A stretch of 44,966 bases of DNA from a virus. Made by a program: the position numbers and the translations under genes. Location: the IMG/VR virus record IMGVR_UViG_3300045988_027444. One strand, 5' to 3'. The notes beneath the pieces were generated by a model that had not been told where the DNA came from, ran no database searches, and worked only from the letters and a program-made list of their open reading frames with translations. Shown piece by piece: positions 1 through 44,966 of the stretch. Numbering within the stretch: the first letter of the stretch is position 1; each line of letters begins with the position of its first letter.

Positions 1-119
1 AAAGCAAAGTGGAAACAAGATGAAATTGTAAAAGCTGCTGAACTATTAGAAATCTCACAAGATGAGATTGCCGAATATTTTTTTGCCTATAAAGTTCAAG
101 AACTTGAACCAAAAAAAAT
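1..119. repeat. Terminal direct repeat, left copy (identical to 44848-44966)
   Basis: Base-by-base identity read directly. The repeat lies inside the cro-like ORF and keeps its frame. Confidence 0.95.
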
Positions 120-150
120 TAAAATTATGAAAGGAACAAACAATGAATGA
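1..150 (+). CDS. 3' part of the Cro-like XRE-family HTH protein (continues from 44731-44966 across the circular junction)
   Basis: Frame 1 is open from base 1 to TGA 148-150. It is in frame with ATG 44731 via the 119-bp overlap. Confidence 0.8.
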   Translation, partial: KAKWKQDEIVKAAELLEISQDEIAEYFFAYKVQELEPKKIKIMKGTNNE

Positions 151-274
151 ACTAGAAAGAACAGCCCTCAATGAAATACTGAGGACTGTGACATATATAG
201 CTGAGAAGTTGGATGAACTAGATTCTAAGATTTCTTCGAACGATTCACAAGTTCTTGAGCATCAAGAAAATTGA
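143..274 (+). CDS. Possible 43-aa small ORF (MNELERTALNEILRTV...)
   Basis: ATG 143 overlaps the cro stop (ATGAATGA). It runs convergently into the 3' end of the minus-strand gene. No clear RBS. Confidence 0.2.
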   Translation: MNELERTALNEILRTVTYIAEKLDELDSKISSNDSQVLEHQEN

Positions 275-908
275 GTTTCATTTCCATGTAGTGAATAACT
301 CCATGAAGGTAGTTCTTTAGGTCTGTAAAGTCTTTGTCGGGGTTGTTTCTGTAGTAATGACCTTCGTCATTGCCAATATAAGCAGATGCAAGAGCGAATG
401 TTTTAAGGTCTTCGTCCTTAATATATTTTTCGATAACTTGTTTTAGCGACATTTTAATGATTTTACCTTCATCATCAGGGTTGGTAACGATGGAGAAATC
501 TTTAACGAAAAACTCAAGTGCCTTTCGATATCCTATACCTGCAATGTGGTCTAATTGTTCATACTCGGCTTTCAGTGCTTGGACATAGATTTGCTTGCCG
601 ATTGGAGAAACCATCTCTACATCGTCAGATATAGGTATATCGCTTGGAAGATTAGGAATTACTTTGATGTGTTTAATTTCGTATGTTCTGTCGTATGAGT
701 TGATCACATAAGCTATAAATTCCTCCGTCCAGAAGTGCTTACAACCTAAGCATCTAAATGTTAATACCAAATGTGTTTCATCTTCTGTGAGGGGAAAATA
801 AGAAGAATTTACTAGGTCTGGATTGGTTGGTTTTTTACAAATCGGACAGCTGTCTTCAACGGTTACAGGTCTAGAAACAGAAGAGCTTATTTTTGCTTGA
901 AATATCAT
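225..908 (-). CDS. Zn-ribbon plus DUF4145-like protein (227 aa), antisense accessory gene
   Basis: ATG at 908 sits 4 nt after a GGAGAAG RBS (913-919 rc). The tracked start at 947 has no RBS. Motifs are CPICKK...CLGCKH, then IGYRKALEFFVKD...YIGNDEGHY, which resembles the DUF4145 signature. Confidence 0.75.
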   Translation of the reverse strand: MIFQAKISSSVSRPVTVEDSCPICKKPTNPDLVNSSYFPLTEDETHLVLTFRCLGCKHFWTEEFIAYVINSYDRTYEIKHIKVIPNLPSDIPISDDVEMVSPIGKQIYVQALKAEYEQLDHIAGIGYRKALEFFVKDFSIVTNPDDEGKIIKMSLKQVIEKYIKDEDLKTFALASAYIGNDEGHYYRNNPDKDFTDLKNYLHGVIHYMEMKLNFLDAQELVNRSKKS

Positions 909-938
909 AATTCTTCTCCAATCGTTTTTATTGTCTCT

Positions 939-946
939 ATTATACA
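939..946 (-). promoter_or_regulatory. Extended -10 promoter (TGTATAAT) for the DUF4145-like gene
   Basis: The reverse complement of attataca at 939-946 is TGTATAAT, about 30 nt upstream of ATG 908. Confidence 0.55.
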
Positions 947-967
947 AAACTTAGAAAGGAAAAGTAA

Positions 968-1210
968 ATGCAAGAAATCACCTACAAACCAGCCGGAGTT
1001 AACGAAACGGCTGAGTGGGGAGACTACGACCACCTCATGCAACGGTGGGAAGGTCTTGGGAAGTCAATGGCGAAGAACCTCATCAGAGAAATGAGGGATA
1101 ACAAAGACTTCCGGGACTACGTATTCAACCCAACACATAAACTGGTTTTCATTAACTATGAAGGCTTTAAGTCCTTCATCGAATGGAAAACTAGAAACAG
1201 ATTCAAATAA
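968..1210 (+). CDS. Hypothetical early protein, 80 aa
   Basis: ORF with an AAAGGAAAAG RBS upstream. No motif recognised. Confidence 0.6.
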   Translation: MQEITYKPAGVNETAEWGDYDHLMQRWEGLGKSMAKNLIREMRDNKDFRDYVFNPTHKLVFINYEGFKSFIEWKTRNRFK

Positions 1211-1717: not shown

Positions 1718-1744
1718 AAAAAAAGCACAGGTAAGGGCCTGTGC
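1718..1744 (-). terminator. Hairpin with a T-run on the minus strand (GCACAGG-6-CCTGTGC after A7 on plus)
   Basis: A 7-bp perfect stem at 1725-1744 is preceded by aaaaaaa at 1718-1724. It reads as an intrinsic terminator only on the minus strand. Confidence 0.45.
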
Positions 1745-1773
1745 AGAGAAAATTATACCAAGGAGATTATACC

Positions 1774-3567
1774 ATGAAAACACAAACAATTGCAAAACCA
1801 TCTTTCACTAAATCAAAAGCCTATGGTCTTTGCGGAACACTTGCGCTCGCTACAGCATTGCTTATCGGTGCTGGCCAAATATCAGCGGACGAAACAACAC
1901 AGCCAGTAGTTGACGCTCAACCAGCGGTGTCTAATGTCTATACAGCTGACAACGCTGGAAATGTCACAGTTACACCTAGCGAACCAGCGGCAGAAACACC
2001 AAAAGTGTTGGCACCAGCACCAGTAGAATCTCAACCGATTGCAGAAGCACCAGCAACAGTCGAAACTACTCCAGCGGTTGCTACCGAATCAGCACCATTG
2101 GCAGAAGTAGCTCAACCAGTAGCTGAAACGCCTAAACAGCCTACTGAATTTGTCAAAGAAGACAACGAAATTAAAGTAACTAATCCAGATGTTATCGTTG
2201 ACCAATCAAACGGAACTGGTAAATACAGTGGTTTTACAGTGGAATATAAAGACGTTAAATTCCCAGATAGCATGCCTATCAACGAAGGGGATAAGGTAAC
2301 ATTCAACCTTCCAAAAGAAATCAACTTCCAAACAAACTATGATTTTGATGTCTATAACCCAGAAAAAGCTGTTGTTGGTAAGGCTTCAACTGACCCTAAG
2401 ACACAAACAGTAACAACCGTATTTAACGATTACTTCAAGAACCATCCACTCAATAAACAAATGTCATTGAAGCTCGATGCTAAGTGGACTGACAAGGTTG
2501 AAAGTGGCAAGCCAGTTAACGTTAATTTCAATGGTACAGTGGTTACTGTTAATATTGGCAAAGAACAAGAAATCGGTAAAGATGAATTACTTTCTAAATG
2601 GGGCAGCCAAGACGAGAATGACCCAACTGTTATCAACTGGACTGCTCGTATTAACTACGCTAAGAGAGTGCTCAACTATGTGACTATCATTGATGAAATG
2701 TCAGAGAATCAAAAGTTAGTTGATAACTTCTTTGAAGTAAAGAATATTGAAAGTGTTGATCCGTGGATTGACAAAGGCTCAGCTATGGACTTAGTTAAGT
2801 CTATCAGTAAGTCAGATCGTGGCTTTACTATCAAGATGGATCGCTTGGATCACATGATCTACATCAACTATAAGACTAAGCTTGTTAACGCTGTCAAGGA
2901 CTCAGTTAACCCAACGAACAAAATTGAGTTGAAAGCAGAAACAGATGGAGCTACTTCGTATAGCTATGTACAACTCGTAGGAGGAAAGGGTGATGCGTCT
3001 GGTGAGAACAAACCAGAACCAACTTTTGAGGTGCCAAACGAAGCGCCTAAAGTAGACATTCCAGAATTTGAGGGCGGTATCCCCGGAATCCCAGAGGTGC
3101 GAGAATTACCGGAGTATACTGAGCCAATCGGAACAGTTCCTAATGAAGCCCCAGTACATGATAAGCCAGAGTTCCAAGGTGGTATCCCTGGTATTCCAGA
3201 AGAACGTGAGCTCCCACCATTTGAAGGTGGCACAGTGCCAAACGATGCCCCTGTCCTTGACTTGCCAGAATTGCACATTCCGGAAGAACCAACTAAGCCA
3301 ACACCAGAAAAACCAGTGACACCAAAAGAAGTGCCTAACAAGCCCGCAGACGCTCCTAAAGATAAAGCGGCACAATCTACCACAGTATCGTATAAGCTCG
3401 ATTCCGAGCCAAAAGAGGTGGCAAATACGACGGTTTACGGTGGTGTTCTCCCTAACACTGGTGAGAAAGAGGGCATCATGTCAACTCTTGGTCTAGCAGT
3501 TATCGCTGTTGGTATCGCAGGTTTGACATTGAGCTTCAAGAAATATAACGAAAGAGGAGAGAATTAA
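1774..3567 (+). CDS. LPXTG cell-wall-anchored surface adhesin, Cna/MSCRAMM-like collagen-binding-type domain plus Pro-rich repeats
   Basis: ATG 1774 follows an AAGGAG RBS. Signal peptide ends ...GAGQISA/DE. GDKVTFNLP...VTTVFNDYF resembles a Cna-type fold. Three PNEAP..PEF.GGIPGIPE repeats. LPNTG (3448-3462), then a TM helix and KKYNERGEN tail. Confidence 0.85.
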   Translation: MKTQTIAKPSFTKSKAYGLCGTLALATALLIGAGQISADETTQPVVDAQPAVSNVYTADNAGNVTVTPSEPAAETPKVLAPAPVESQPIAEAPATVETTPAVATESAPLAEVAQPVAETPKQPTEFVKEDNEIKVTNPDVIVDQSNGTGKYSGFTVEYKDVKFPDSMPINEGDKVTFNLPKEINFQTNYDFDVYNPEKAVVGKASTDPKTQTVTTVFNDYFKNHPLNKQMSLKLDAKWTDKVESGKPVNVNFNGTVVTVNIGKEQEIGKDELLSKWGSQDENDPTVINWTARINYAKRVLNYVTIIDEMSENQKLVDNFFEVKNIESVDPWIDKGSAMDLVKSISKSDRGFTIKMDRLDHMIYINYKTKLVNAVKDSVNPTNKIELKAETDGATSYSYVQLVGGKGDASGENKPEPTFEVPNEAPKVDIPEFEGGIPGIPEVRELPEYTEPIGTVPNEAPVHDKPEFQGGIPGIPEERELPPFEGGTVPNDAPVLDLPELHIPEEPTKPTPEKPVTPKEVPNKPADAPKDKAAQSTTVSYKLDSEPKEVANTTVYGGVLPNTGEKEGIMSTLGLAVIAVGIAGLTLSFKKYNERGEN

Positions 3568-40540: not shown

Positions 40541-40597
40541 TAAAGAAAAAGCCTATCATATCAAGGTTTAAACCTTGGTAGATAGGTCTTTTTTTAT
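40541..40597. terminator. Bidirectional terminator downstream of int
   Basis: cctatc...gatagg encloses the perfect palindrome caaggtttaaaccttg. An A-run lies on one side and T7 on the other. Confidence 0.7.
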
Positions 40598-41772
40598 TCT
40601 AAGGGGCAAGAAAGGGGCAAGTTATCAATGATTTCAACTACCTTATTCTTCATTTTGTTGGTGACGTGAGTATAAATCTTCATCGTTGTATCACTGTCAT
40701 CATGCCCAACTCTATCCATGATAGCCTTTAACGGGACGCCATTCTCAGCTAGATAACTGACCAGCGTATGCCTGAAGATATGTGATGATATTGGTTTGTT
40801 AATTGGCTTATCTAGTCGCTTGTTAGCTGCTTGAATAGAATTGTTAAATGAGTTTCGTTGAAGTGGTACGCCCTTGTCAGTCACAAAAATATAATCCCTA
40901 TCCATGGTCACCCAATCGTCTGATAGCGACCTGTTTAGATCCCGAATCTGTATAGCTTCATCTAGTAATTCAATTTCACGCTTGGTTAGTTTATTGCTAC
41001 GATAGCCTGCTGGGGTCTTAGGTGGTTCCTTTTTTGCTCTCTTGTAGCCCTGGACGCTATCCAGGGTGCCAAAAATATCAAGGTATCCGTCCTCTTTTCT
41101 GTAATTGCACGTTTCAAGGGCTACCGCTTCACCGATTCGAGCACCGCTGACAAAGAGAAACTCTGCAAGGATGGCATTTCTATAAGTGCGTTTTTGCTTT
41201 CGTAATTCTGCAAGTAGCGGAAGTAGTTCAGTGTCTATCTCTAGAAACTTATTTCTTATCTTGTCGTAATCTTCCATCGTTTGCTGTTTCTTGGGAAGTT
41301 TTGCTTGCCTTGCAGGATTGCTAGGAATGTAACCAACGGTGCAAGCGTAATCGAAGGTTAGATTCAATATAGATTTAACACGCTCAAGGATTGAACGTGG
41401 AACATCGGCATCGTTGATAAAGCGTTGGATATAGTGTGTATCAATGTTTGCTATTTTGACATCTACAGCGAAATTCTCTTCGACATACCTGACATTGCTG
41501 GTCATGGAACTAATCGAAGTCCTTCGAATGCCTTTCTTGTGAAATTCCCACCACTCGCTCAACACATCGTTAAATGATGCGTCGGTAGTGTTTAAGCCAG
41601 CCATCTTTTCAGCTATCTTATCATCCAGTAAGCGTTGAGCCTCTTTCTTTGCTCGATTTGAGCCACTGTTGAGCGTAACAGATACCCGTCTCCATTTCTC
41701 AGTGTAAGTGTCCTTGTATCTTTCAAAATATTTATATTTTCCATTCGGTAATTCTTCTACCCACATTGTCAT
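40594..41772 (-). CDS. int: Tyrosine recombinase / phage integrase
   Basis: The C-terminal catalytic set is ..GARIGE.., HIFRHT and GHDDSDTTMKIYTHV. The RBS is AGGAGA. Confidence 0.9.
   Translation of the reverse strand: MTMWVEELPNGKYKYFERYKDTYTEKWRRVSVTLNSGSNRAKKEAQRLLDDKIAEKMAGLNTTDASFNDVLSEWWEFHKKGIRRTSISSMTSNVRYVEENFAVDVKIANIDTHYIQRFINDADVPRSILERVKSILNLTFDYACTVGYIPSNPARQAKLPKKQQTMEDYDKIRNKFLEIDTELLPLLAELRKQKRTYRNAILAEFLFVSGARIGEAVALETCNYRKEDGYLDIFGTLDSVQGYKRAKKEPPKTPAGYRSNKLTKREIELLDEAIQIRDLNRSLSDDWVTMDRDYIFVTDKGVPLQRNSFNNSIQAANKRLDKPINKPISSHIFRHTLVSYLAENGVPLKAIMDRVGHDDSDTTMKIYTHVTNKMKNKVVEIIDNLPLSCPLE
40601..40620 (+). repeat. AAGGGGCAA direct repeat pair inside the last codons of int
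   Basis: aaggggcaagaaaggggcaa, which encodes LPLSCPL on the minus strand. Confidence 0.45.
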
Positions 41773-41901: not shown

Positions 41902-42534
41902 TTATTTAACCTTGACTTTCATTTCTCCATTAAGTTTTTGACTTGCAATAGCACTGCCATCATCCGCTTTAATGTGAAACATTGGATAGCGCTCATAATT
42001 GACATTGTTAATTGCAGCCCAAACGTTAAATGCTTCATGTTCTTTGGCAAGCATGCCATCAGCGAATTTTTGTAAATCGGTTTTGTCATAGTATTTATAA
42101 TCAACAGGTACCGACATATACAAAATGGTATCACGATTATAAAAACCATATTGACTAATATCTACACCTTTTTCTGTCAAATCTTTTTGGAAGTATTCGA
42201 TAAAGCTAGCCATTTGATCAGCGGTAACATCTTTAGGGCCATCTGAAGAACTTGATTCTTTAGTTTCGCTTTTAGATTCTTTTTCTTCGGAAGAGCTTGA
42301 TTCTTTTGAAGCCTTCTCCTCTCGTTGAGGGTTAGACAAGTCTGAACTACTGCTGGTTTTAGTCTTGGTTTTGGTTTTTGGCTTAGAAGAAGACGTTTGG
42401 ACAGTCTTGACTGGTTCTGTCTTCGTTTCTGGAGCGATACCAGTTATTTCAAAAAACTTACCAAGTACAGCCAAACCTAATATGACAACAACCCACTTTT
42501 GCCAGCGTTTCAAATTCTTCCATTTACTCAACAT
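41902..42534 (-). CDS. N-terminally membrane-anchored protein with a Ser/Lys/Glu-rich linker and a ~110-aa extracellular domain
   Basis: TM helix WVVVILGLAVLGKFF, low-complexity linker, RBS AAGGAG 8 nt upstream. Located between immA and int. Confidence 0.7.
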   Translation of the reverse strand: MLSKWKNLKRWQKWVVVILGLAVLGKFFEITGIAPETKTEPVKTVQTSSSKPKTKTKTKTSSSSDLSNPQREEKASKESSSSEEKESKSETKESSSSDGPKDVTADQMASFIEYFQKDLTEKGVDISQYGFYNRDTILYMSVPVDYKYYDKTDLQKFADGMLAKEHEAFNVWAAINNVNYERYPMFHIKADDGSAIASQKLNGEMKVKVK

Positions 42535-42536
42535 TT

Positions 42537-42905
42537 TTAAATCTCCTTTAGTTTTAGATATTCATTTTTTACAAAAGTCTCATCACAAATAGTGGTGAGA
42601 TTATATTTTTCCATAAAGTGGACGTAGTTGAAGTCGTCCAGGGATTCGTTTTCGAGCAATCCACGGATCATGTCTCTATTAGCTTGAGCCTCATACTTTT
42701 CTCGCAGACGCTCATAGTGTTTAGGATCGTGTTCTAGGTGGCCTAATTCGTGCAGTAGGACCTTTAAACGTCTTTCGACGGGTAAATCCCTATTGATGTA
42801 AACCACACGGTTAACAGGGTCTAGAAACCCATCTCGTGGCCACTGGCTAGAGTCGAACTCACAAAGAGACACGTTGAACTGCTCAAGTAATTCTTTTTCA
42901 GGCAT
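42537..42905 (-). CDS. ImmA/IrrE-family zinc metallopeptidase
   Basis: HEXXH motif LLHELGHLEH. Size and location in the lysogeny module. Confidence 0.85.
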   Translation of the reverse strand: MPEKELLEQFNVSLCEFDSSQWPRDGFLDPVNRVVYINRDLPVERRLKVLLHELGHLEHDPKHYERLREKYEAQANRDMIRGLLENESLDDFNYVHFMEKYNLTTICDETFVKNEYLKLKEI

Positions 42906-43185: not shown

Positions 43186-43758
43186 TTATTTGCCGAACCA
43201 GACAGGAATAGCAATACCGGCAAGAGCTACAAGGATACCAATAAACCAATAAGTGAATTCTTTTCTATTCTTGGCTTGTTCCTCGAGTTGCCTATTGGTT
43301 TGTGCTAAGAACATGTTTTCCATGCGTTGACCAAAGGTATCAAATTTAGCGTCAATCTTTTGGTCCATCATCTGGAATTTTAAGTCCAGTTCGTTTTTGG
43401 CGTACATGTCGTCTAGTTTGTTTTCAATTTTTTCAATACGACGCCCTAACTGATCAGTGCGAAGAGATAGCTCAGTCTTATCTTGATTTAAGCTCTGGGC
43501 TGTTTGTTGAAGGAAATGTTGAGTGTTTTCTTCGTTCTTTTCCAATCTTTGCTCCAGCGCTTGAATATCCAGCTCACGATACAAGTCAATAGCCATTTGT
43601 CTTACCTCATCTATTTGATTTTGTAAATCCATTATATCACTTGCATGGGGTGTTTGGGTGTTGATTCTTTTGCTAGAGTTTATAGAAGTCACCTTAGACG
43701 GTCTAGCGCTTGCAGTGGCATTTGTTTCAGGAACTTCGATATCTTGAGTGTTATTCAT
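43186..43758 (-). CDS. Unknown tail-anchored coiled-coil membrane protein (190 aa)
   Basis: Disordered N-terminus, long coiled coil, and a single C-terminal TM helix FTYWFIGILVALAGIAIPVWF. Its start overlaps the upstream stop by 8 nt. Confidence 0.7.
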   Translation of the reverse strand: MNNTQDIEVPETNATASARPSKVTSINSSKRINTQTPHASDIMDLQNQIDEVRQMAIDLYRELDIQALEQRLEKNEENTQHFLQQTAQSLNQDKTELSLRTDQLGRRIEKIENKLDDMYAKNELDLKFQMMDQKIDAKFDTFGQRMENMFLAQTNRQLEEQAKNRKEFTYWFIGILVALAGIAIPVWFGK

Positions 43759-44179
43759 TCATACCACCCCCGAAATAGTAGTAGCAGTAAAATGTATCAG
43801 TAGCCTCGCCACCTTTTATCAAAGCGAACAACAGGAACAAATCCCCTTTTTCCATCAAATTTAAATCAAAGGTAAAATCCCCGGCTGCTTTCCCGTAGCC
43901 CTCGTTATCGGGAGCTAAAATGCTTGACTTTGGTATATAGACGTTTGTAGCATGGACAAGATAAGGCTCTCTACTTGGGAAATTTGCAGTAACTACTAGC
44001 GTGTAGTTCGTTTCGGGTTGGATGTTAAAGAAATCTATAGAACAATTCAGCGCCACGCCTATCGGATAACTCGATAAGTTGTTTAATGTGCTAAGTTCGT
44101 CACCGCTGTCAGCTTCAAAAAGTTTGACTCCAGCAATCTTTTCTTTAAATGGATTTGACTTCGTAGCGACACTTACCAT
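43751..44179 (-). CDS. Unknown beta-rich soluble protein (142 aa)
   Basis: ATG 44179 lies 1 nt after the cI stop, and the AAGGGAGAA RBS sits inside the cI 3' end. No motif recognised. Confidence 0.7.
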   Translation of the reverse strand: MVSVATKSNPFKEKIAGVKLFEADSGDELSTLNNLSSYPIGVALNCSIDFFNIQPETNYTLVVTANFPSREPYLVHATNVYIPKSSILAPDNEGYGKAAGDFTFDLNLMEKGDLFLLFALIKGGEATDTFYCYYYFGGGMNE

Positions 44180-44180
44180 A

Positions 44181-44561
44181 CTATTCTCCCTTACTACTCA
44201 TATAACCTGCAATAATGCCACGGATAGCCCGCTTGTCATCCTCAGTCAGCGGTTTACCGTCGAACATCATGGCGTTGTCGATGATTTCATCGATGTCATG
44301 GGTATTAGGTTGTGGGTCGTCGGTCATAGGGGCGTCGTATCCCATGAGCCACGCTTCAGACACTCCCAACGTTCTAGCAAGTAACACTAACTTTTCTTGG
44401 TCTGGTGTTGATTTCCCATTGATATACTGAGACAAAGCGCTCTTTCCGAGTTTTACACCTAGTTCTTTTTGATGAGCTTTTGAAAGAGAAATTATATCAA
44501 CTTGTTTTAAGTTCCGTTCGCTCATAATTTGCTGCAAACGTGAAGCAGTAGTATTTTTCAT
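44181..44561 (-). CDS. CI-like XRE-family HTH repressor
   Basis: HTH LKQVDIISLS...SALSQYINGKSTP, divergent from the cro-like gene. Confidence 0.85.
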   Translation of the reverse strand: MKNTTASRLQQIMSERNLKQVDIISLSKAHQKELGVKLGKSALSQYINGKSTPDQEKLVLLARTLGVSEAWLMGYDAPMTDDPQPNTHDIDEIIDNAMMFDGKPLTEDDKRAIRGIIAGYMSSKGE

Positions 44562-44657: not shown

Positions 44658-44686
44658 TTGACAAAATAAAAGAGAAGGATTAAAAT
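44658..44686 (+). promoter_or_regulatory. Early lytic promoter (TTGACA-17-TAAAAT) for the cro-like gene
   Basis: TTGACA at 44658-44663, a 17-nt spacer and TAAAAT at 44681-44686. Confidence 0.7.
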
Positions 44687-44730: not shown

Positions 44731-44966
44731 ATGAGATTTAACTATGCTAAATTAAAAGGTCGCATCAAAGAAAAATATGAGACTCAAGGAGATTTTGCGA
44801 AAGCTATTGGCTTAACTCCTACAACATTTTCGTTTAAAATCAACGGTAAAGCAAAGTGGAAACAAGATGAAATTGTAAAAGCTGCTGAACTATTAGAAAT
44901 CTCACAAGATGAGATTGCCGAATATTTTTTTGCCTATAAAGTTCAAGAACTTGAACCAAAAAAAAT
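44731..44966 (+). CDS. 5' part of the Cro-like XRE-family HTH protein (continues at 1-150)
   Basis: ATG 44731 follows AAAGGAGAA. HTH QGDFAKAIGLTPTTFSFKINGK. The joined protein is 88 aa. Confidence 0.8.
   Translation, partial: MRFNYAKLKGRIKEKYETQGDFAKAIGLTPTTFSFKINGKAKWKQDEIVKAAELLEISQDEIAEYFFAYKVQELEPKK
44848..44966. repeat. Terminal direct repeat, right copy (identical to 1-119)
   Basis: Same 119 nt as the window start. This is an assembly-style circular overlap. Confidence 0.95.

What the first reader, a model, noticed from the sequence alone, without database searches (positions are those of the whole stretch)
225..947. Self-promoted antisense Zn-ribbon/DUF4145-like gene embedded in the early lytic transcript
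This is the only minus-strand gene in the 40-kb rightward block. It has its own extended -10 (TGTATAAT, 939-946 rc) and a good RBS.

The protein pairs a CxxC...CxxC ribbon with a C-terminal region (IGYRKALEFFVKD ... YIGNDEGHY) that matches my memory of DUF4145. That domain is seen fused to restriction and abortive-infection-type proteins.

Its 3' end overlaps, convergently, a small plus-strand ORF that follows cro (143-274). Early lytic transcription from the cro promoter must therefore collide with it. This looks like a lysogeny-expressed defence or regulatory moron.
Basis: partly seen in the sequence, partly recalled or inferred. Interest (0 to 1): 0.65.

Follow-up and report, generated by a model that had tools for sequence, protein, structure and literature searches.

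The report
Prophage antisense defence cassette, RAZR-like
A streptococcal prophage carries, backwards inside its early lytic operon, a self-promoted gene for a zinc-ribbon plus HEPN-like protein that sits in a swappable slot also used by known anti-phage genes, so it is most likely an untested immunity gene that is on in the lysogen and shut off when the phage wakes up.

Summary
The minus-strand gene is real. Its CDS is 225-908 (ATG start, GGAG RBS), not 225-947. It has a TATAAT promoter, an orientation-specific terminator hairpin (161-189), and a convergent overlap with a 43-aa gene.

The protein has an invariant Cys4 zinc ribbon and a helical DUF4145/HEPN-like domain. It does not hit Pfam itself, but 40 of 58 relatives hit PF13643. 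The family is large: 2,609 clusters at 50% identity. It has the architecture of RAZR (PD-T7-4) but fails the PD-T7-4 model and lacks RAZR's catalytic arginine.

The gene occupies a cassette slot. The same promoter, leader and 3' flank enclose unrelated cargos in related streptococcal phages:
- a canonical RAZR homologue;
- a TIR-like effector;
- Abi_alpha;
- an HExxH protein.

Deletion alleles also occur. Distant homologues lie in defence islands, or antisense in the early operons of unrelated prophages.

The best reading is a lysogeny-expressed abortive-infection sensor-effector, silenced by head-on early transcription, as shown for Tha/Ith in S. aureus phages. Function and expression are inferred, not shown. 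I class it as a new variant of a known kind.

The parts
225..908 (-). CDS of the 227-aa zinc-ribbon plus DUF4145/HEPN-like protein (ATG 906-908, stop TAG 225-227). Residues 1-86 form the beta-rich Cys4 zinc ribbon. Residues about 95-227 form the helical domain.
   Evidence: ORF. phrog_1305 over the full length, E 1.5e-70. 118 homologues and 2,609 clusters. AF2 model with pLDDT 82 for the whole protein and 91 for the helical domain. Invariant C21, C24, C53, C56, R128, E132, K136, D137, N180, D181, H184 and Y185.
913..919 (-). Ribosome-binding site GGAGAAG, 7 nt from GGAG to the ATG.
   Evidence: Sequence. GATTGGAGAA is conserved upstream of all cargo types in relatives.
939..968 (-). Promoter of the antisense gene: -35 TTTACT (968-963), 18-nt spacer, -10 TATAAT (944-939). 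The -35 overlaps the start codon of the divergent xis-like gene.
   Evidence: Promoter scan, 10 of 12 matches. The -10 box, leader and RBS are conserved in about 70 distinct loci with different upstream flanks, mostly as canonical TGnTATAAT. The same element sits in front of unrelated cargos.
149..189 (-). Terminator-like element for the antisense gene: a 12-bp hairpin (189-161) followed by the U-rich tail UUCUUUCUAGUU. It lies 36 nt after the stop codon, inside the coding sequence of the 43-aa gene.
   Evidence: Terminator scan. Minus-strand RNA fold -18.6 kcal/mol, z -3.7, with 0 of 200 shuffles as good. On the plus-strand RNA the hairpin is interrupted and has no U tract. All 12 pairs are kept in 80 of 92 distinct sequences; the variation is only G-U to A-U, so there is no compensatory proof.
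143..274 (+). Convergent 43-aa gene of the early transcript. The first 26 codons (143-220) are conserved. The last 17 codons overlap the 3' end of the antisense gene. Its start overlaps the cro stop (ATGAATGA).
   Evidence: phrog_4488, E 6.5e-28. Purifying selection in its own frame: 454 synonymous against 131 non-synonymous codon differences, while other frames are 0.03-0.2, or 1.2 for the complementary frame. A Shine-Dalgarno sequence is present in many different upstream contexts. The same N-terminus is joined to different tails according to cargo.
44658..44686 (+). Early rightward promoter (TTGACA-17-TAAAAT) upstream of cro. Its transcripts must run head-on through the antisense gene.
   Evidence: Promoter scan, 11 of 12 matches. 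The divergent cI-side promoter is at 44617-44589. No plus-strand promoter was found between 275 and 967.
44731..44966 (+). cro-like gene (DUF739). It continues across the circular junction to window position 150.
   Evidence: Pfam DUF739, E 7.2e-8. Sequence and translation. 119-nt terminal repeat.
968..1210 (+). xis-like gene (phrog_904) immediately downstream of the cassette. It is the first early gene that depends on read-through across the antisense gene.
   Evidence: phrog_904 excisionase, E 4.7e-32. Its RBS and ATG overlap the -35 of the antisense promoter.

Best explanation
The gene at 225-908 (minus strand) is the cargo of a conserved antisense expression cassette. The cassette sits in the early lytic operon of streptococcal temperate phages.

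Shown here:
- The cassette consists of a conserved promoter, leader and RBS; a variable cargo; and a conserved 3' flank.
- The 3' flank is a hairpin terminator embedded in a conserved 43-aa convergent gene.
- The cargo in this phage is a 227-aa protein. It has an invariant Cys4 zinc ribbon that varies quickly outside the cysteines. It also has a better-conserved helical DUF4145/HEPN-like domain.

Inferred:
- In the lysogen the cI-type repressor keeps the early promoter off. The cassette promoter then expresses the protein, and transcription stops at the hairpin.
- The protein acts as a single-gene abortive-infection sensor-effector of the RAZR / Tha / HepS kind. The variable zinc-ribbon domain recognises a protein of a superinfecting phage, probably a structural or ring-forming one. 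The helical domain then arrests the cell, most likely by cutting RNA.
- On induction or infection, early transcription through cro and the 43-aa gene runs head-on across the whole gene. Promoter occlusion, polymerase collision and full-length antisense RNA switch the gene off. The phage thereby limits self-targeting.

I put about 0.6 on 'lysogeny-expressed anti-phage cargo' and about 0.35 on the specific RNase mechanism.
For: Architecture:
- Invariant C21, C24, C53 and C56. The zinc-ribbon profile hits the RPB9/TFIIS-type ribbon (1i3q_I, E 7e-4; 1qyp). The RAZR paper uses the same comparison (PMC13017515).
- The C-terminal domain links to PF13643 in 14 of 19 and in 40 of 58 relatives (best E 1.3e-7). 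The matches cover profile positions 3-86 of 88.
- The best meaningful Foldseek matches are HEPN proteins: 2q00, 1wol, 4nqf, 2hsb and sacsin, with TM 0.55-0.64.
- hhalign against RAZR-type sequences pairs YRKALEFL with LRLCLQKL, and WLGNDETHY with RIVGNQAVHP.
- The zinc-ribbon region is about twice as divergent as the helical domain (0.22-0.37 against 0.47-0.62 identity). In RAZR the zinc-finger domain likewise sets specificity.

Defence context:
- The same slot carries a canonical RAZR homologue: SM1 gp7, PADLOC PD-T7-4 E 1.5e-15, PDB 9Y9C E 6.5e-7.
- It also carries a TIR-like effector (PDLC00733, E 1.5e-14) and Abi_alpha (E 3.4e-28).
- Distant homologues lie next to AbiH plus GmrSD, and next to RT plus SLATT.

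Dispensability: deletion and replacement alleles exist.

Expression logic:
- The promoter, leader and RBS are conserved.
- The terminator is orientation-specific.
- No plus-strand promoter was found between the 43-aa gene and xis.
- The antisense placement, with a small convergent gene at the 3' end, recurs at 30-35% protein identity in unrelated prophages.

Precedent: Tha/Ith shows experimentally that a prophage HEPN defence gene, overlapped by a small antisense gene, is gated by the lysogeny/lysis switch. HepS and RAZR show single HEPN proteins that sense phage structural proteins.
Against: - No expression or phenotype data exist for this gene or any close relative. The one streptococcal-phage RNA-seq paper I found concerns a phage (SpSL1) that lacks the gene.
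- The window protein gives no Pfam or PADLOC hit of its own.
- None of 58 relatives hits the PD-T7-4 model.
- A family HMM scores RAZR-type sequences no better than decoys.
- hhalign gives only 15% probability.
- Foldseek E-values are not significant, and RAZR (9Y9C) was not retrieved.
- The arginine that is essential in RAZR (R146, at H-8) is A, T, V or S in all 58 relatives. The R/K at H-10, seen in 35 of 58, is Ala in this protein. RNase activity is therefore uncertain.
- This window's promoter has lost the TG of the extended -10.
- The hairpin has no compensatory double changes.
- Transcriptional interference is inferred from layout only.
Confidence: 0.6

Rival explanations
1. The cassette is mainly a regulatory device of the lysis-lysogeny switch. 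Constitutive antisense transcription from 939-968 towards cro acts as a brake, or insulator, on leaky early transcription into xis and the replication genes. The protein is secondary, or is a DNA/RNA-binding regulator as the PHROG label suggests.
For: - The position is immediately after cro and before xis, with no other plus-strand promoter found.
- The spacing is extremely compact: the xis RBS and ATG sit inside the antisense -35.
- The promoter and terminator flanks are conserved far better than the cargo.
- phrog_1305 is labelled 'DNA binding protein'.
- Zinc ribbons often bind nucleic acids.
Against: - Some close relatives lack the cargo and its promoter altogether (L101 type), and are still recorded as phage contigs.
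- The cargos that fill the slot are recognisable defence effectors, not regulators.
- The protein family also occurs outside prophages, in defence islands.
- The strongly conserved polar constellation R128-K129-E132-K136-D137 / N180-D181-H184-Y185 argues for a selected protein activity.
- This rival is compatible with the best explanation at cassette level. It competes only on what the protein does.
Confidence: 0.15
2. It is a toxin-antidote (addiction or autoimmunity-control) pair. The HEPN-like protein is a toxin. Its antidote is either the 43-aa protein, acting as an Ith-like inhibitor, or the antisense part of the early transcript. The main role is prophage maintenance or control of self-toxicity rather than sensing foreign phage.
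For: - HEPN domains are common toxins (PMC3710099).
- In S. aureus phages the small overlapping antisense gene ith encodes a protein inhibitor of the HEPN defence protein Tha.
- The 43-aa ORF is a real coding gene under purifying selection.
- In SM1 it is duplicated together with each cassette.
- A small convergent gene abuts the 3' end of distant homologues too.
Against: - The conserved 26-residue N-terminus of the small protein is nearly identical in front of unrelated cargos: zinc-ribbon/HEPN-like, TIR-like, HExxH and Abi_alpha. Only the overlap-encoded tail changes. That is not what is expected of a cognate protein inhibitor.
- The small convergent genes of distant homologues are not homologous to it.
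- No antitoxin-like DNA-binding domain was found.
Confidence: 0.15
3. The helical domain is a catalytically dead HEPN-like scaffold. The protein works without nuclease activity, for example by binding and blocking a phage assembly intermediate (assembly interference or superinfection exclusion), or as a decoy.
For: - The canonical arginine of the DUF4145 R-x-x-G-N-x-x-x-H motif is missing in every member.
- Anantharaman et al. list HEPN families that keep H but lack R, and note the motif is conserved in only about 80% of DUF4145.
- The family is not recognised by the PD-T7-4 model.
Against: Invariant N180, D181, H184, Y185, R128, E132, K136 and D137 across 58 sequences at about 30% identity look like an active site rather than a decayed one. 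Arg/Lys at 187-188 and R128 could supply the missing positive charge. This could not be checked because no model coordinates were available.
Confidence: 0.1

Closest known systems
RAZR (ring-activated zinc-finger RNase; PD-T7-4), E. coli; PDB 9Y9C; PMC13017515
   Same: - It is a single protein of about 220 aa with an N-terminal Cys4 zinc ribbon (compared to RPB9/1QYP in both cases), a short linker and a C-terminal DUF4145-type helical domain.
- The zinc-ribbon domain is the most variable part.
- A true RAZR homologue (SM1 gp7) sits behind the same cassette promoter in a related phage.
   Different: - There is no detectable sequence match to the PD-T7-4 model or to RAZR-type sequences (hhalign 15%).
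- The catalytic Arg (R146 equivalent) is absent. The family has a distinct invariant motif, W-[LI]-G-N-D-E-x-H-Y-x-R-K, plus G-Y-R-K-A-L-E-F-x-x-K-D.
- The zinc-ribbon domain is longer, about 86 residues with six strands.
- Trigger, oligomeric state and RNase activity are unknown.
Tha/Ith noncontiguous operon of S. aureus prophages 80alpha, phi11 and phiNM2 (PMC11087260)
   Same: - It is a prophage-borne single HEPN-type defence gene whose 3' end is overlapped by a small convergent gene.
- The two transcription units belong to opposite life-cycle programmes, so expression is expected to be mutually exclusive.
- The small gene lies beside a gene annotated as excisionase.
   Different: - The polarity is reversed. 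Tha rides on the cI (lysogenic) operon and ith has its own constitutive promoter. Here the defence-like gene has its own promoter and the small gene rides on the early lytic operon.
- Tha is 301 aa with a canonical RNxxxH motif and no zinc ribbon.
- The 43-aa gene here keeps the same N-terminus in front of unrelated cargos, so a cognate-inhibitor role is doubtful.
HepS of the Gifsy-1 prophage (PMC13043305), and other single-gene HEPN abortive-infection proteins
   Same: It is a prophage-encoded, single-protein HEPN-type candidate that must spare its own phage.
   Different: HepS has no zinc ribbon. It avoids self-targeting through a non-triggering tail-tip variant rather than through gene layout. 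No sequence relation was tested.
DS-38 (zinc-finger plus HEPN, validated in the DefensePredictor preprint, 10.1101/2025.01.08.631726)
   Same: It is another validated defence protein that combines a zinc finger with a HEPN domain. Its zinc finger differs from that of PD-T7-4.
Defence hotspots of temperate phages and satellites (P2/P4 hotspots, Rousset et al. 2022; phage morons). This comparison rests on my own knowledge.
   Same: It is a fixed genomic slot with conserved flanks in which unrelated defence genes replace each other.
   Different: Here the slot is a single-gene, antisense unit with its own shared promoter, leader and terminator, inside the early lytic operon. It can occur in tandem: three copies in SM1.

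Membership tests
Pfam DUF4145 (PF13643; HEPN clan) | Significant match of the protein to the PF13643 profile | tested here: inconclusive
   The window protein has no hit at E<=1. Among relatives, 14 of 19 hit at E<=10 and 40 of 58 at E<=0.01. The matches span profile positions 3-86 of 88. Most score 16-20 bits against a gathering score of 23.1; one scores 32 bits. NCBI names several close orthologues 'DUF4145 domain-containing protein'.
Pfam DUF4145 (PF13643; HEPN clan) | Conserved R-x-x-G-N-x-x-x-H motif (the divergent HEPN Rx4-6H) | tested here: not met
   G179, N180 and H184 are invariant or nearly so. The Arg position (176) is A, T, V or S in 58 of 58 sequences. The window protein has Ala at both 174 and 176.
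Pfam DUF4145 (PF13643; HEPN clan) | All-alpha HEPN fold | tested here: inconclusive
   The AF2 model of residues 88-227 has pLDDT 91 and is all helical. The best meaningful Foldseek hits are HEPN proteins with TM 0.55-0.64 and rmsd about 4 A. Their E-values are 0.07-3, so not significant.
RAZR / PD-T7-4 | N-terminal Cys4 zinc-ribbon domain | tested here: met
   C21, C24, C53 and C56 are invariant. The profile hits the RPB9 zinc ribbon at E 7e-4. The region is beta-rich in the model.
RAZR / PD-T7-4 | Match to the PD-T7-4 family model or to the RAZR sequence | tested here: not met
   None of 58 relatives hits PADLOC PD-T7-4 at E<=0.1. The positive control, SM1 gp7, gives 1.5e-15. A family HMM scores RAZR-type proteins at or below 11 bits, within the noise. 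hhalign gives 15% probability. 9Y9C was found neither by profile nor by Foldseek.
RAZR / PD-T7-4 | Catalytic R146 and H154, both essential for defence | tested here: not met
   The His equivalent (H184) is invariant. The Arg equivalent is absent.
RAZR / PD-T7-4 | The zinc-finger domain is the most variable region and sets specificity | tested here: met
   Mean pairwise identity is 0.22-0.37 for residues 1-86 and 0.47-0.62 for residues 101-227, in three sequence sets. This tests variability only; specificity is untested.
RAZR / PD-T7-4 | Abortive infection through RNA cleavage after assembly on a ring-shaped phage protein | not testable with these tools
   This needs plaque assays, escape mutants and biochemistry.
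Tha/Ith-type antisense (noncontiguous-operon) immune switch | Prophage HEPN-type defence gene whose 3' end is overlapped by a small convergent gene of the opposite life-cycle programme | tested here: met
   There is a 50-nt convergent overlap between 225-908(-) and 143-274(+). The small gene follows cro in the early operon. The layout is conserved in about 60 streptococcal loci and in unrelated prophages.
Tha/Ith-type antisense (noncontiguous-operon) immune switch | Defence gene on the cI operon, and the small gene on its own constitutive promoter | tested here: not met
   The polarity is reversed. The defence-like gene has its own promoter at 939-968. The small gene has no promoter of its own and its start overlaps the cro stop.
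Tha/Ith-type antisense (noncontiguous-operon) immune switch | The small protein inhibits its cognate defence protein | not testable with these tools
   Indirect evidence argues against a cognate role: the same N-terminal 26 residues precede unrelated cargos.
Phage defence hotspot / moron cassette | Conserved flanks with interchangeable, unrelated cargo genes, including known defence genes | tested here: met
   118 loci share the 3' flank. The cargo clusters are zinc-ribbon/HEPN-like (60 loci), TIR-like (14), HExxH (10), Abi_alpha (2), a membrane protein (2), and none or a remnant (about 12). The shared promoter and leader stand in front of the zinc-ribbon/HEPN-like, TIR-like, HExxH and canonical RAZR cargos. 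L196 and L155 have this window's exact 5' flank but the HExxH cargo.

The most novel reading that the evidence does not exclude
Streptococcal temperate phages, and by layout many other Firmicute prophages, carry a plug-and-play antisense immunity cassette inside the early lytic operon. It has a shared promoter, leader and RBS on one side. On the other side it has a shared terminator embedded in a conserved 43-aa gene. Single-gene defence effectors are swapped in by recombination, sometimes stacked in tandem.

The orientation itself would be the control mechanism: on in the lysogen, and silenced by head-on early transcription at induction. That would be a mirror image of the Tha/Ith noncontiguous operon.

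The cargo here would found a large, unannotated sister family of RAZR (2,609 clusters at 50% identity). It would use a different catalytic constellation, with no motif arginine and an invariant N-D-x-x-H-Y plus R-K-x-x-E-x-x-x-K-D. The conserved 43-aa protein could be a general, cargo-independent component of the switch.
Probability: 0.35. Interest if true: 0.72.

Novelty: new variant of a known kind. Interest (0 to 1): 0.6.

Why it matters
Three points would matter if the reading is correct.

1. It would add a large protein family to the anti-phage repertoire. The family has 2,609 clusters at 50% identity and is not recognised by PADLOC. It would also ask how a DUF4145/HEPN-type domain works without the arginine that is essential in RAZR.

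2. It points to a defined discovery site in streptococcal prophages, including those of S. pneumoniae, S. suis, the S. mitis group and the salivarius group. The site has known flanks. New single-gene defences, such as the unannotated HExxH cargo, could be harvested there by a simple sequence anchor.

3. It offers a second, mirror-image example of gene orientation solving the autoimmunity problem of prophage-borne abortive-infection genes. This is directly testable with strand-specific RNA-seq and cassette inversion.

It also has a practical side for dairy and oral streptococci, where prophage-borne resistance affects phage control and phage therapy.

Tried and rejected
- Direct Pfam, NCBIfam and PADLOC scans of the window protein gave nothing usable. 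The Toprim, DUF7351 and PDC-S17 hits were at noise level.
- PDB sequence searches with two family profiles returned only generic zinc-finger or zinc-ribbon hits, and no RAZR.
- Foldseek against the PDB, with both the full model and the helical domain alone, ranked HEPN proteins best among meaningful hits. None was significant, and 9Y9C was not retrieved.
- Foldseek against BFVD returned two unnamed viral proteins only.
- hhalign against a RAZR-type alignment aligned the right motifs but gave only 15% probability.
- A local family HMM against RAZR-type sequences plus 2,686 decoy ORFs showed no separation.
- I looked for RNA-seq evidence of lysogenic expression in the pneumococcal phage SpSL1 paper. 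That phage lacks the gene.
- I tested whether the small convergent genes next to distant homologues are related to the 43-aa ORF. They are not.
- Rfam found no known RNA family in the window or in the cargo-less L101 locus.
- I considered that the 43-aa ORF is only a hairpin or recombination flank and not a gene. I rejected this because of the synonymous-substitution bias in its frame and the conserved Shine-Dalgarno sequence.
- I considered TTG 947 as the start codon. I rejected it because it lies in the promoter spacer just upstream of the -10 box, and orthologues start at the ATG.
Full report
**What the window is.** The window is a complete, circularly permuted temperate phage genome; its last 119 nt repeat its first 119 nt.
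- The lysogeny module is on the minus strand at the far end: a tyrosine integrase at 40594-41772, an ImmA-like Peptidase_M78 at 42537-42905, and a cI-like HTH repressor at 44181-44561.
- Back-to-back promoter-like sites lie at 44617-44589 (minus strand) and 44658-44686 (plus strand, TTGACA-17-TAAAAT).
- A cro-like DUF739 gene starts at 44731 and runs across the junction to position 150.
- The structural genes are about 77% identical to pac-type S. thermophilus phages. The xis region is about 90% identical to S. salivarius prophages. The host is therefore probably a salivarius-group streptococcus.

**Checking the observation.**
- The minus-strand ORF 225-947 exists. It is the only minus-strand ORF over 75 aa in the first 40.5 kb that is not nested in a longer plus-strand ORF.
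- The real start is ATG 906-908, giving 227 aa. GGAG sits 7 nt upstream (916-919 on the plus strand). Orthologues begin at this Met.
- The promoter scan finds TTTACT-18-TATAAT at 968-939 on the minus strand.
In about 70 distinct related loci the same position reads TGGTATAAT or TGATATAAT. It is followed by a conserved leader and RBS (AAAATAAAACGATTGGAGAA), although the DNA further upstream differs.
- A 12-bp hairpin at 189-161, with a U-rich tail, lies 36 nt after the stop. It folds well only in the minus-strand RNA: -18.6 kcal/mol, z -3.7. On the plus strand it is interrupted and has no U tract.
- The 3' end overlaps the plus-strand 43-aa ORF 143-274 by 50 nt.

**The protein.**
- PHROGs places it full-length in phrog_1305 (E 1.5e-70, labelled 'DNA binding protein').
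- It has no Pfam, NCBIfam or PADLOC hit of its own.
- A word-indexed search gave 118 homologues. Several close orthologues are named 'DUF4145 domain-containing protein' by NCBI.
- A profile search gave 2,609 representative clusters at 50% identity, 1,592 of them below 1e-30. Nearly all are 218-245 aa and match full-length.
- In a 58-sequence alignment at about 30% identity, the invariant residues are C21, P22, C24, C53, C56, G124, R128, E132, K136, D137, N180, D181, H184 and Y185.
- AlphaFold2 gives a beta-rich N-terminal domain (strands over residues 2-86) and a helical C-terminal domain. pLDDT is 82 for the whole protein and 91 for residues 88-227 modelled alone.

**Is it DUF4145?** At family level the answer is yes, but only marginally.
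- 14 of 19 relatives (E<=10) and 40 of 58 relatives (E<=0.01, best 1.3e-7) hit PF13643. No competing family appears.
- The matches span profile positions 3-86 of 88. They map to the stretch from GYRKALEF to beyond GNDExHY. Most score just under the gathering score, and one scores above it.
- Foldseek ranks HEPN proteins highest among meaningful hits (TM 0.55-0.64) but without significance.
- DUF4145 is a divergent HEPN family, known to be fused to restriction modules, zinc ribbons and other conflict domains (PMC3710099).

**Relation to RAZR.**
- The literature search for DUF4145 found RAZR (formerly PD-T7-4). It is an E. coli abortive-infection protein with an N-terminal Cys4 zinc ribbon and a C-terminal DUF4145 HEPN RNase. 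It assembles on ring-shaped phage proteins through its variable zinc-finger domain, and it needs R146 and H154 (PMC13017515).
- The window protein has the same two-domain plan. Its zinc-ribbon profile hits the same RPB9-type ribbon. Its zinc-ribbon half is about twice as divergent as its helical half.
- It is nevertheless not a RAZR family member by sequence. None of 58 relatives hits the PADLOC PD-T7-4 model. A family HMM does not separate RAZR-type sequences from decoys. hhalign aligns the expected motifs but gives only 15% probability. PDB entry 9Y9C is never retrieved.
- The position equivalent to RAZR R146 (H-8) is A, T, V or S in every member.
- The family is therefore a distant DUF4145 lineage with its own invariant constellation. 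Whether it cleaves RNA is open.

**The cassette.** This is the main new result.
- Only positions 142-959 of the window are about 85-87% identical at DNA level to S. pneumoniae, S. suis and S. henryi prophages. The flanks do not match. The unit is therefore mobile.
- In phage SM1 the early region holds three antisense genes: gp7, gp11 and gp14. gp14 is the orthologue of the window gene (about 51% identity). gp7 is a canonical RAZR homologue: Pfam DUF4145 1.2e-14, PADLOC PD-T7-4 1.5e-15, PDB 9Y9C 6.5e-7. gp11 is unrelated.
- The first 26 codons of the 43-aa ORF are nearly invariant in about 60 loci, even where the antisense protein is only 39-50% identical.
- I used 20 nt of that ORF as an anchor to scan the viral contigs.
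- The antisense gene behind the anchor falls into these groups: the zinc-ribbon/HEPN-like family (60 loci, several subtypes), a TIR-like protein (14 loci; PADLOC effector TIR 1.5e-14), an HExxH protein with no database match (10), Abi_alpha (2; PF14337 3.4e-28), a membrane protein (2), and about a dozen loci with no cargo or a remnant.
- The same promoter, leader and RBS stand in front of the zinc-ribbon/HEPN-like, TIR-like, HExxH and canonical RAZR cargos.
- Loci L196 and L155 have this window's exact upstream flank but carry the HExxH cargo.
- L147 has an internal deletion of the gene in an otherwise near-identical phage. L101-type loci keep only its last 15 codons. The gene is therefore dispensable and exchangeable, and it shares its slot with recognisable defence effectors.

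**Context of distant homologues.** At 30-36% identity in other bacteria:
- one homologue lies between Fic/DUF6650 and AbiH, near two GmrSD genes;
- one lies next to a reverse transcriptase and a SLATT protein;
- three lie in unrelated prophages in the same layout. They are on the strand of the integrase and repressor, embedded antisense a few genes after cro, with a small convergent gene touching the 3' end. Those small genes are not homologous to the 43-aa ORF.

**The 43-aa gene.**
- It is a real gene. Codon differences among 92 distinct sequences are 454 synonymous to 131 non-synonymous in its frame. Other frames are far worse. A Shine-Dalgarno sequence precedes it in many different upstream contexts.
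- Its start overlaps the cro stop (ATGAATGA).
- Its conserved part also encodes the terminator hairpin of the antisense gene. The hairpin keeps all 12 pairs in 80 of 92 sequences, but only through G-U to A-U changes.
- Its C-terminal tail changes with the cargo, because it is read from the opposite strand of the cargo's 3' end.
- Because the same N-terminus precedes unrelated cargos, a cognate Ith-like inhibitor role is unlikely. A general role in the switch is not excluded.

**Mechanism.**
- Shown: the parts list, and its conservation.
- Inferred: the gene is expressed from its own promoter while cI keeps the early promoter off. On induction, transcripts from 44658-44686 pass cro and the 43-aa gene and then run head-on through 275-967 to reach xis. 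No other plus-strand promoter was found there. This would silence the antisense gene.
- The logic has been demonstrated for tha/ith in S. aureus phages. There a prophage HEPN defence protein, triggered by tail proteins, is kept from killing its own phage by a small overlapping antisense gene and a noncontiguous-operon layout (PMC11087260). The polarity there is the reverse of what is seen here.
- Single-protein HEPN sensors of phage structural proteins are a recurring theme: RAZR, Tha and HepS. DUF4145 domains also act in BxaP and Ishtar.
- I therefore commit to a lysogeny-expressed abortive-infection sensor-effector as the best explanation (about 0.6). The RNase step is less certain (about 0.35) because of the missing arginine.

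**Novelty.**
- Neither the family nor the streptococcal cassette turned up as characterised in the literature I could search.
- I class the finding as a new variant of a known kind. It is a RAZR-like architecture in a distinct sequence family, inside a Tha/Ith-like but mirror-image gene arrangement that doubles as a defence hotspot.

Noticed in passing
window 1741-3567 (+): A 608-aa LPXTG-anchored surface protein with Big_8 and Collagen_bind domains sits in the early region between small early genes and the replication genes. It looks like an adhesin-type lysogenic-conversion moron. Non-coding stretches lie upstream of it (1554-1740) and downstream of it, and a minus-strand terminator-like hairpin lies at 1744-1725.
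   Followed up: partly
window 1-119 and 44848-44966: There is a 119-nt terminal direct repeat, so the window is a circularly permuted complete phage genome of about 44.85 kb. The cro gene is split across the window ends.
   Followed up: yes
L002 (phage SM1) 3956-4633, 5033-5692, 6274-6954: There are three antisense cassettes in tandem in one early operon: gp14 (the target family), gp11 (TIR-like) and gp7 (a canonical RAZR/PD-T7-4 homologue). gp10 and gp13 are both copies of the conserved small ORF. gp7 uses the same promoter and leader.
   Followed up: partly
L090, L196, L155, L188, L164, L198 (cargo behind the small-ORF anchor): A 228-240-aa protein with an HELLH (HExxH) motif occupies the same cassette slot in 10 loci. 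It has no Pfam or PADLOC match, so it is a candidate new single-gene defence protein.
   Followed up: partly
L101, L125, L141, L181, L104 (about 130-510 nt after the small-ORF start): In these loci only the last 15 codons of the zinc-ribbon/HEPN-like gene remain. They are followed by about 380 nt without an ORF, beginning with a terminator-like hairpin (GTCTTAACC...GGTCAAGAC). No Rfam family matches.
   Followed up: partly
L147 (about 86-525 after the small-ORF start): This is an internal deletion allele of the target gene (residues about 87-171 missing) in a phage with the same xis gene as the window. It shows that the gene can be lost.
   Followed up: yes
window 143-150: The start codon of the 43-aa gene overlaps the cro stop codon (ATGAATGA). 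This suggests translational coupling of the small gene to cro.
   Followed up: no
window 41902-42534, 43186-43758, 43751-44179 (all minus strand): Three ORFs of the lysogeny module, between the integrase and cI, have no Pfam match. One has an N-terminal membrane anchor and a Ser/Lys-rich linker, and one has a C-terminal transmembrane segment. They may be further lysogeny-expressed exclusion or defence genes.
   Followed up: no
L205 2186-2389 and L218 2177-2356 (minus strand in locus orientation): The small convergent genes at the 3' ends of two distant homologues, in unrelated prophages, resemble each other (…AE.Q..QL..TI..L.NF.L..D…). They do not resemble the 43-aa ORF of the window. They are a second family of small partner genes.
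   Followed up: partly
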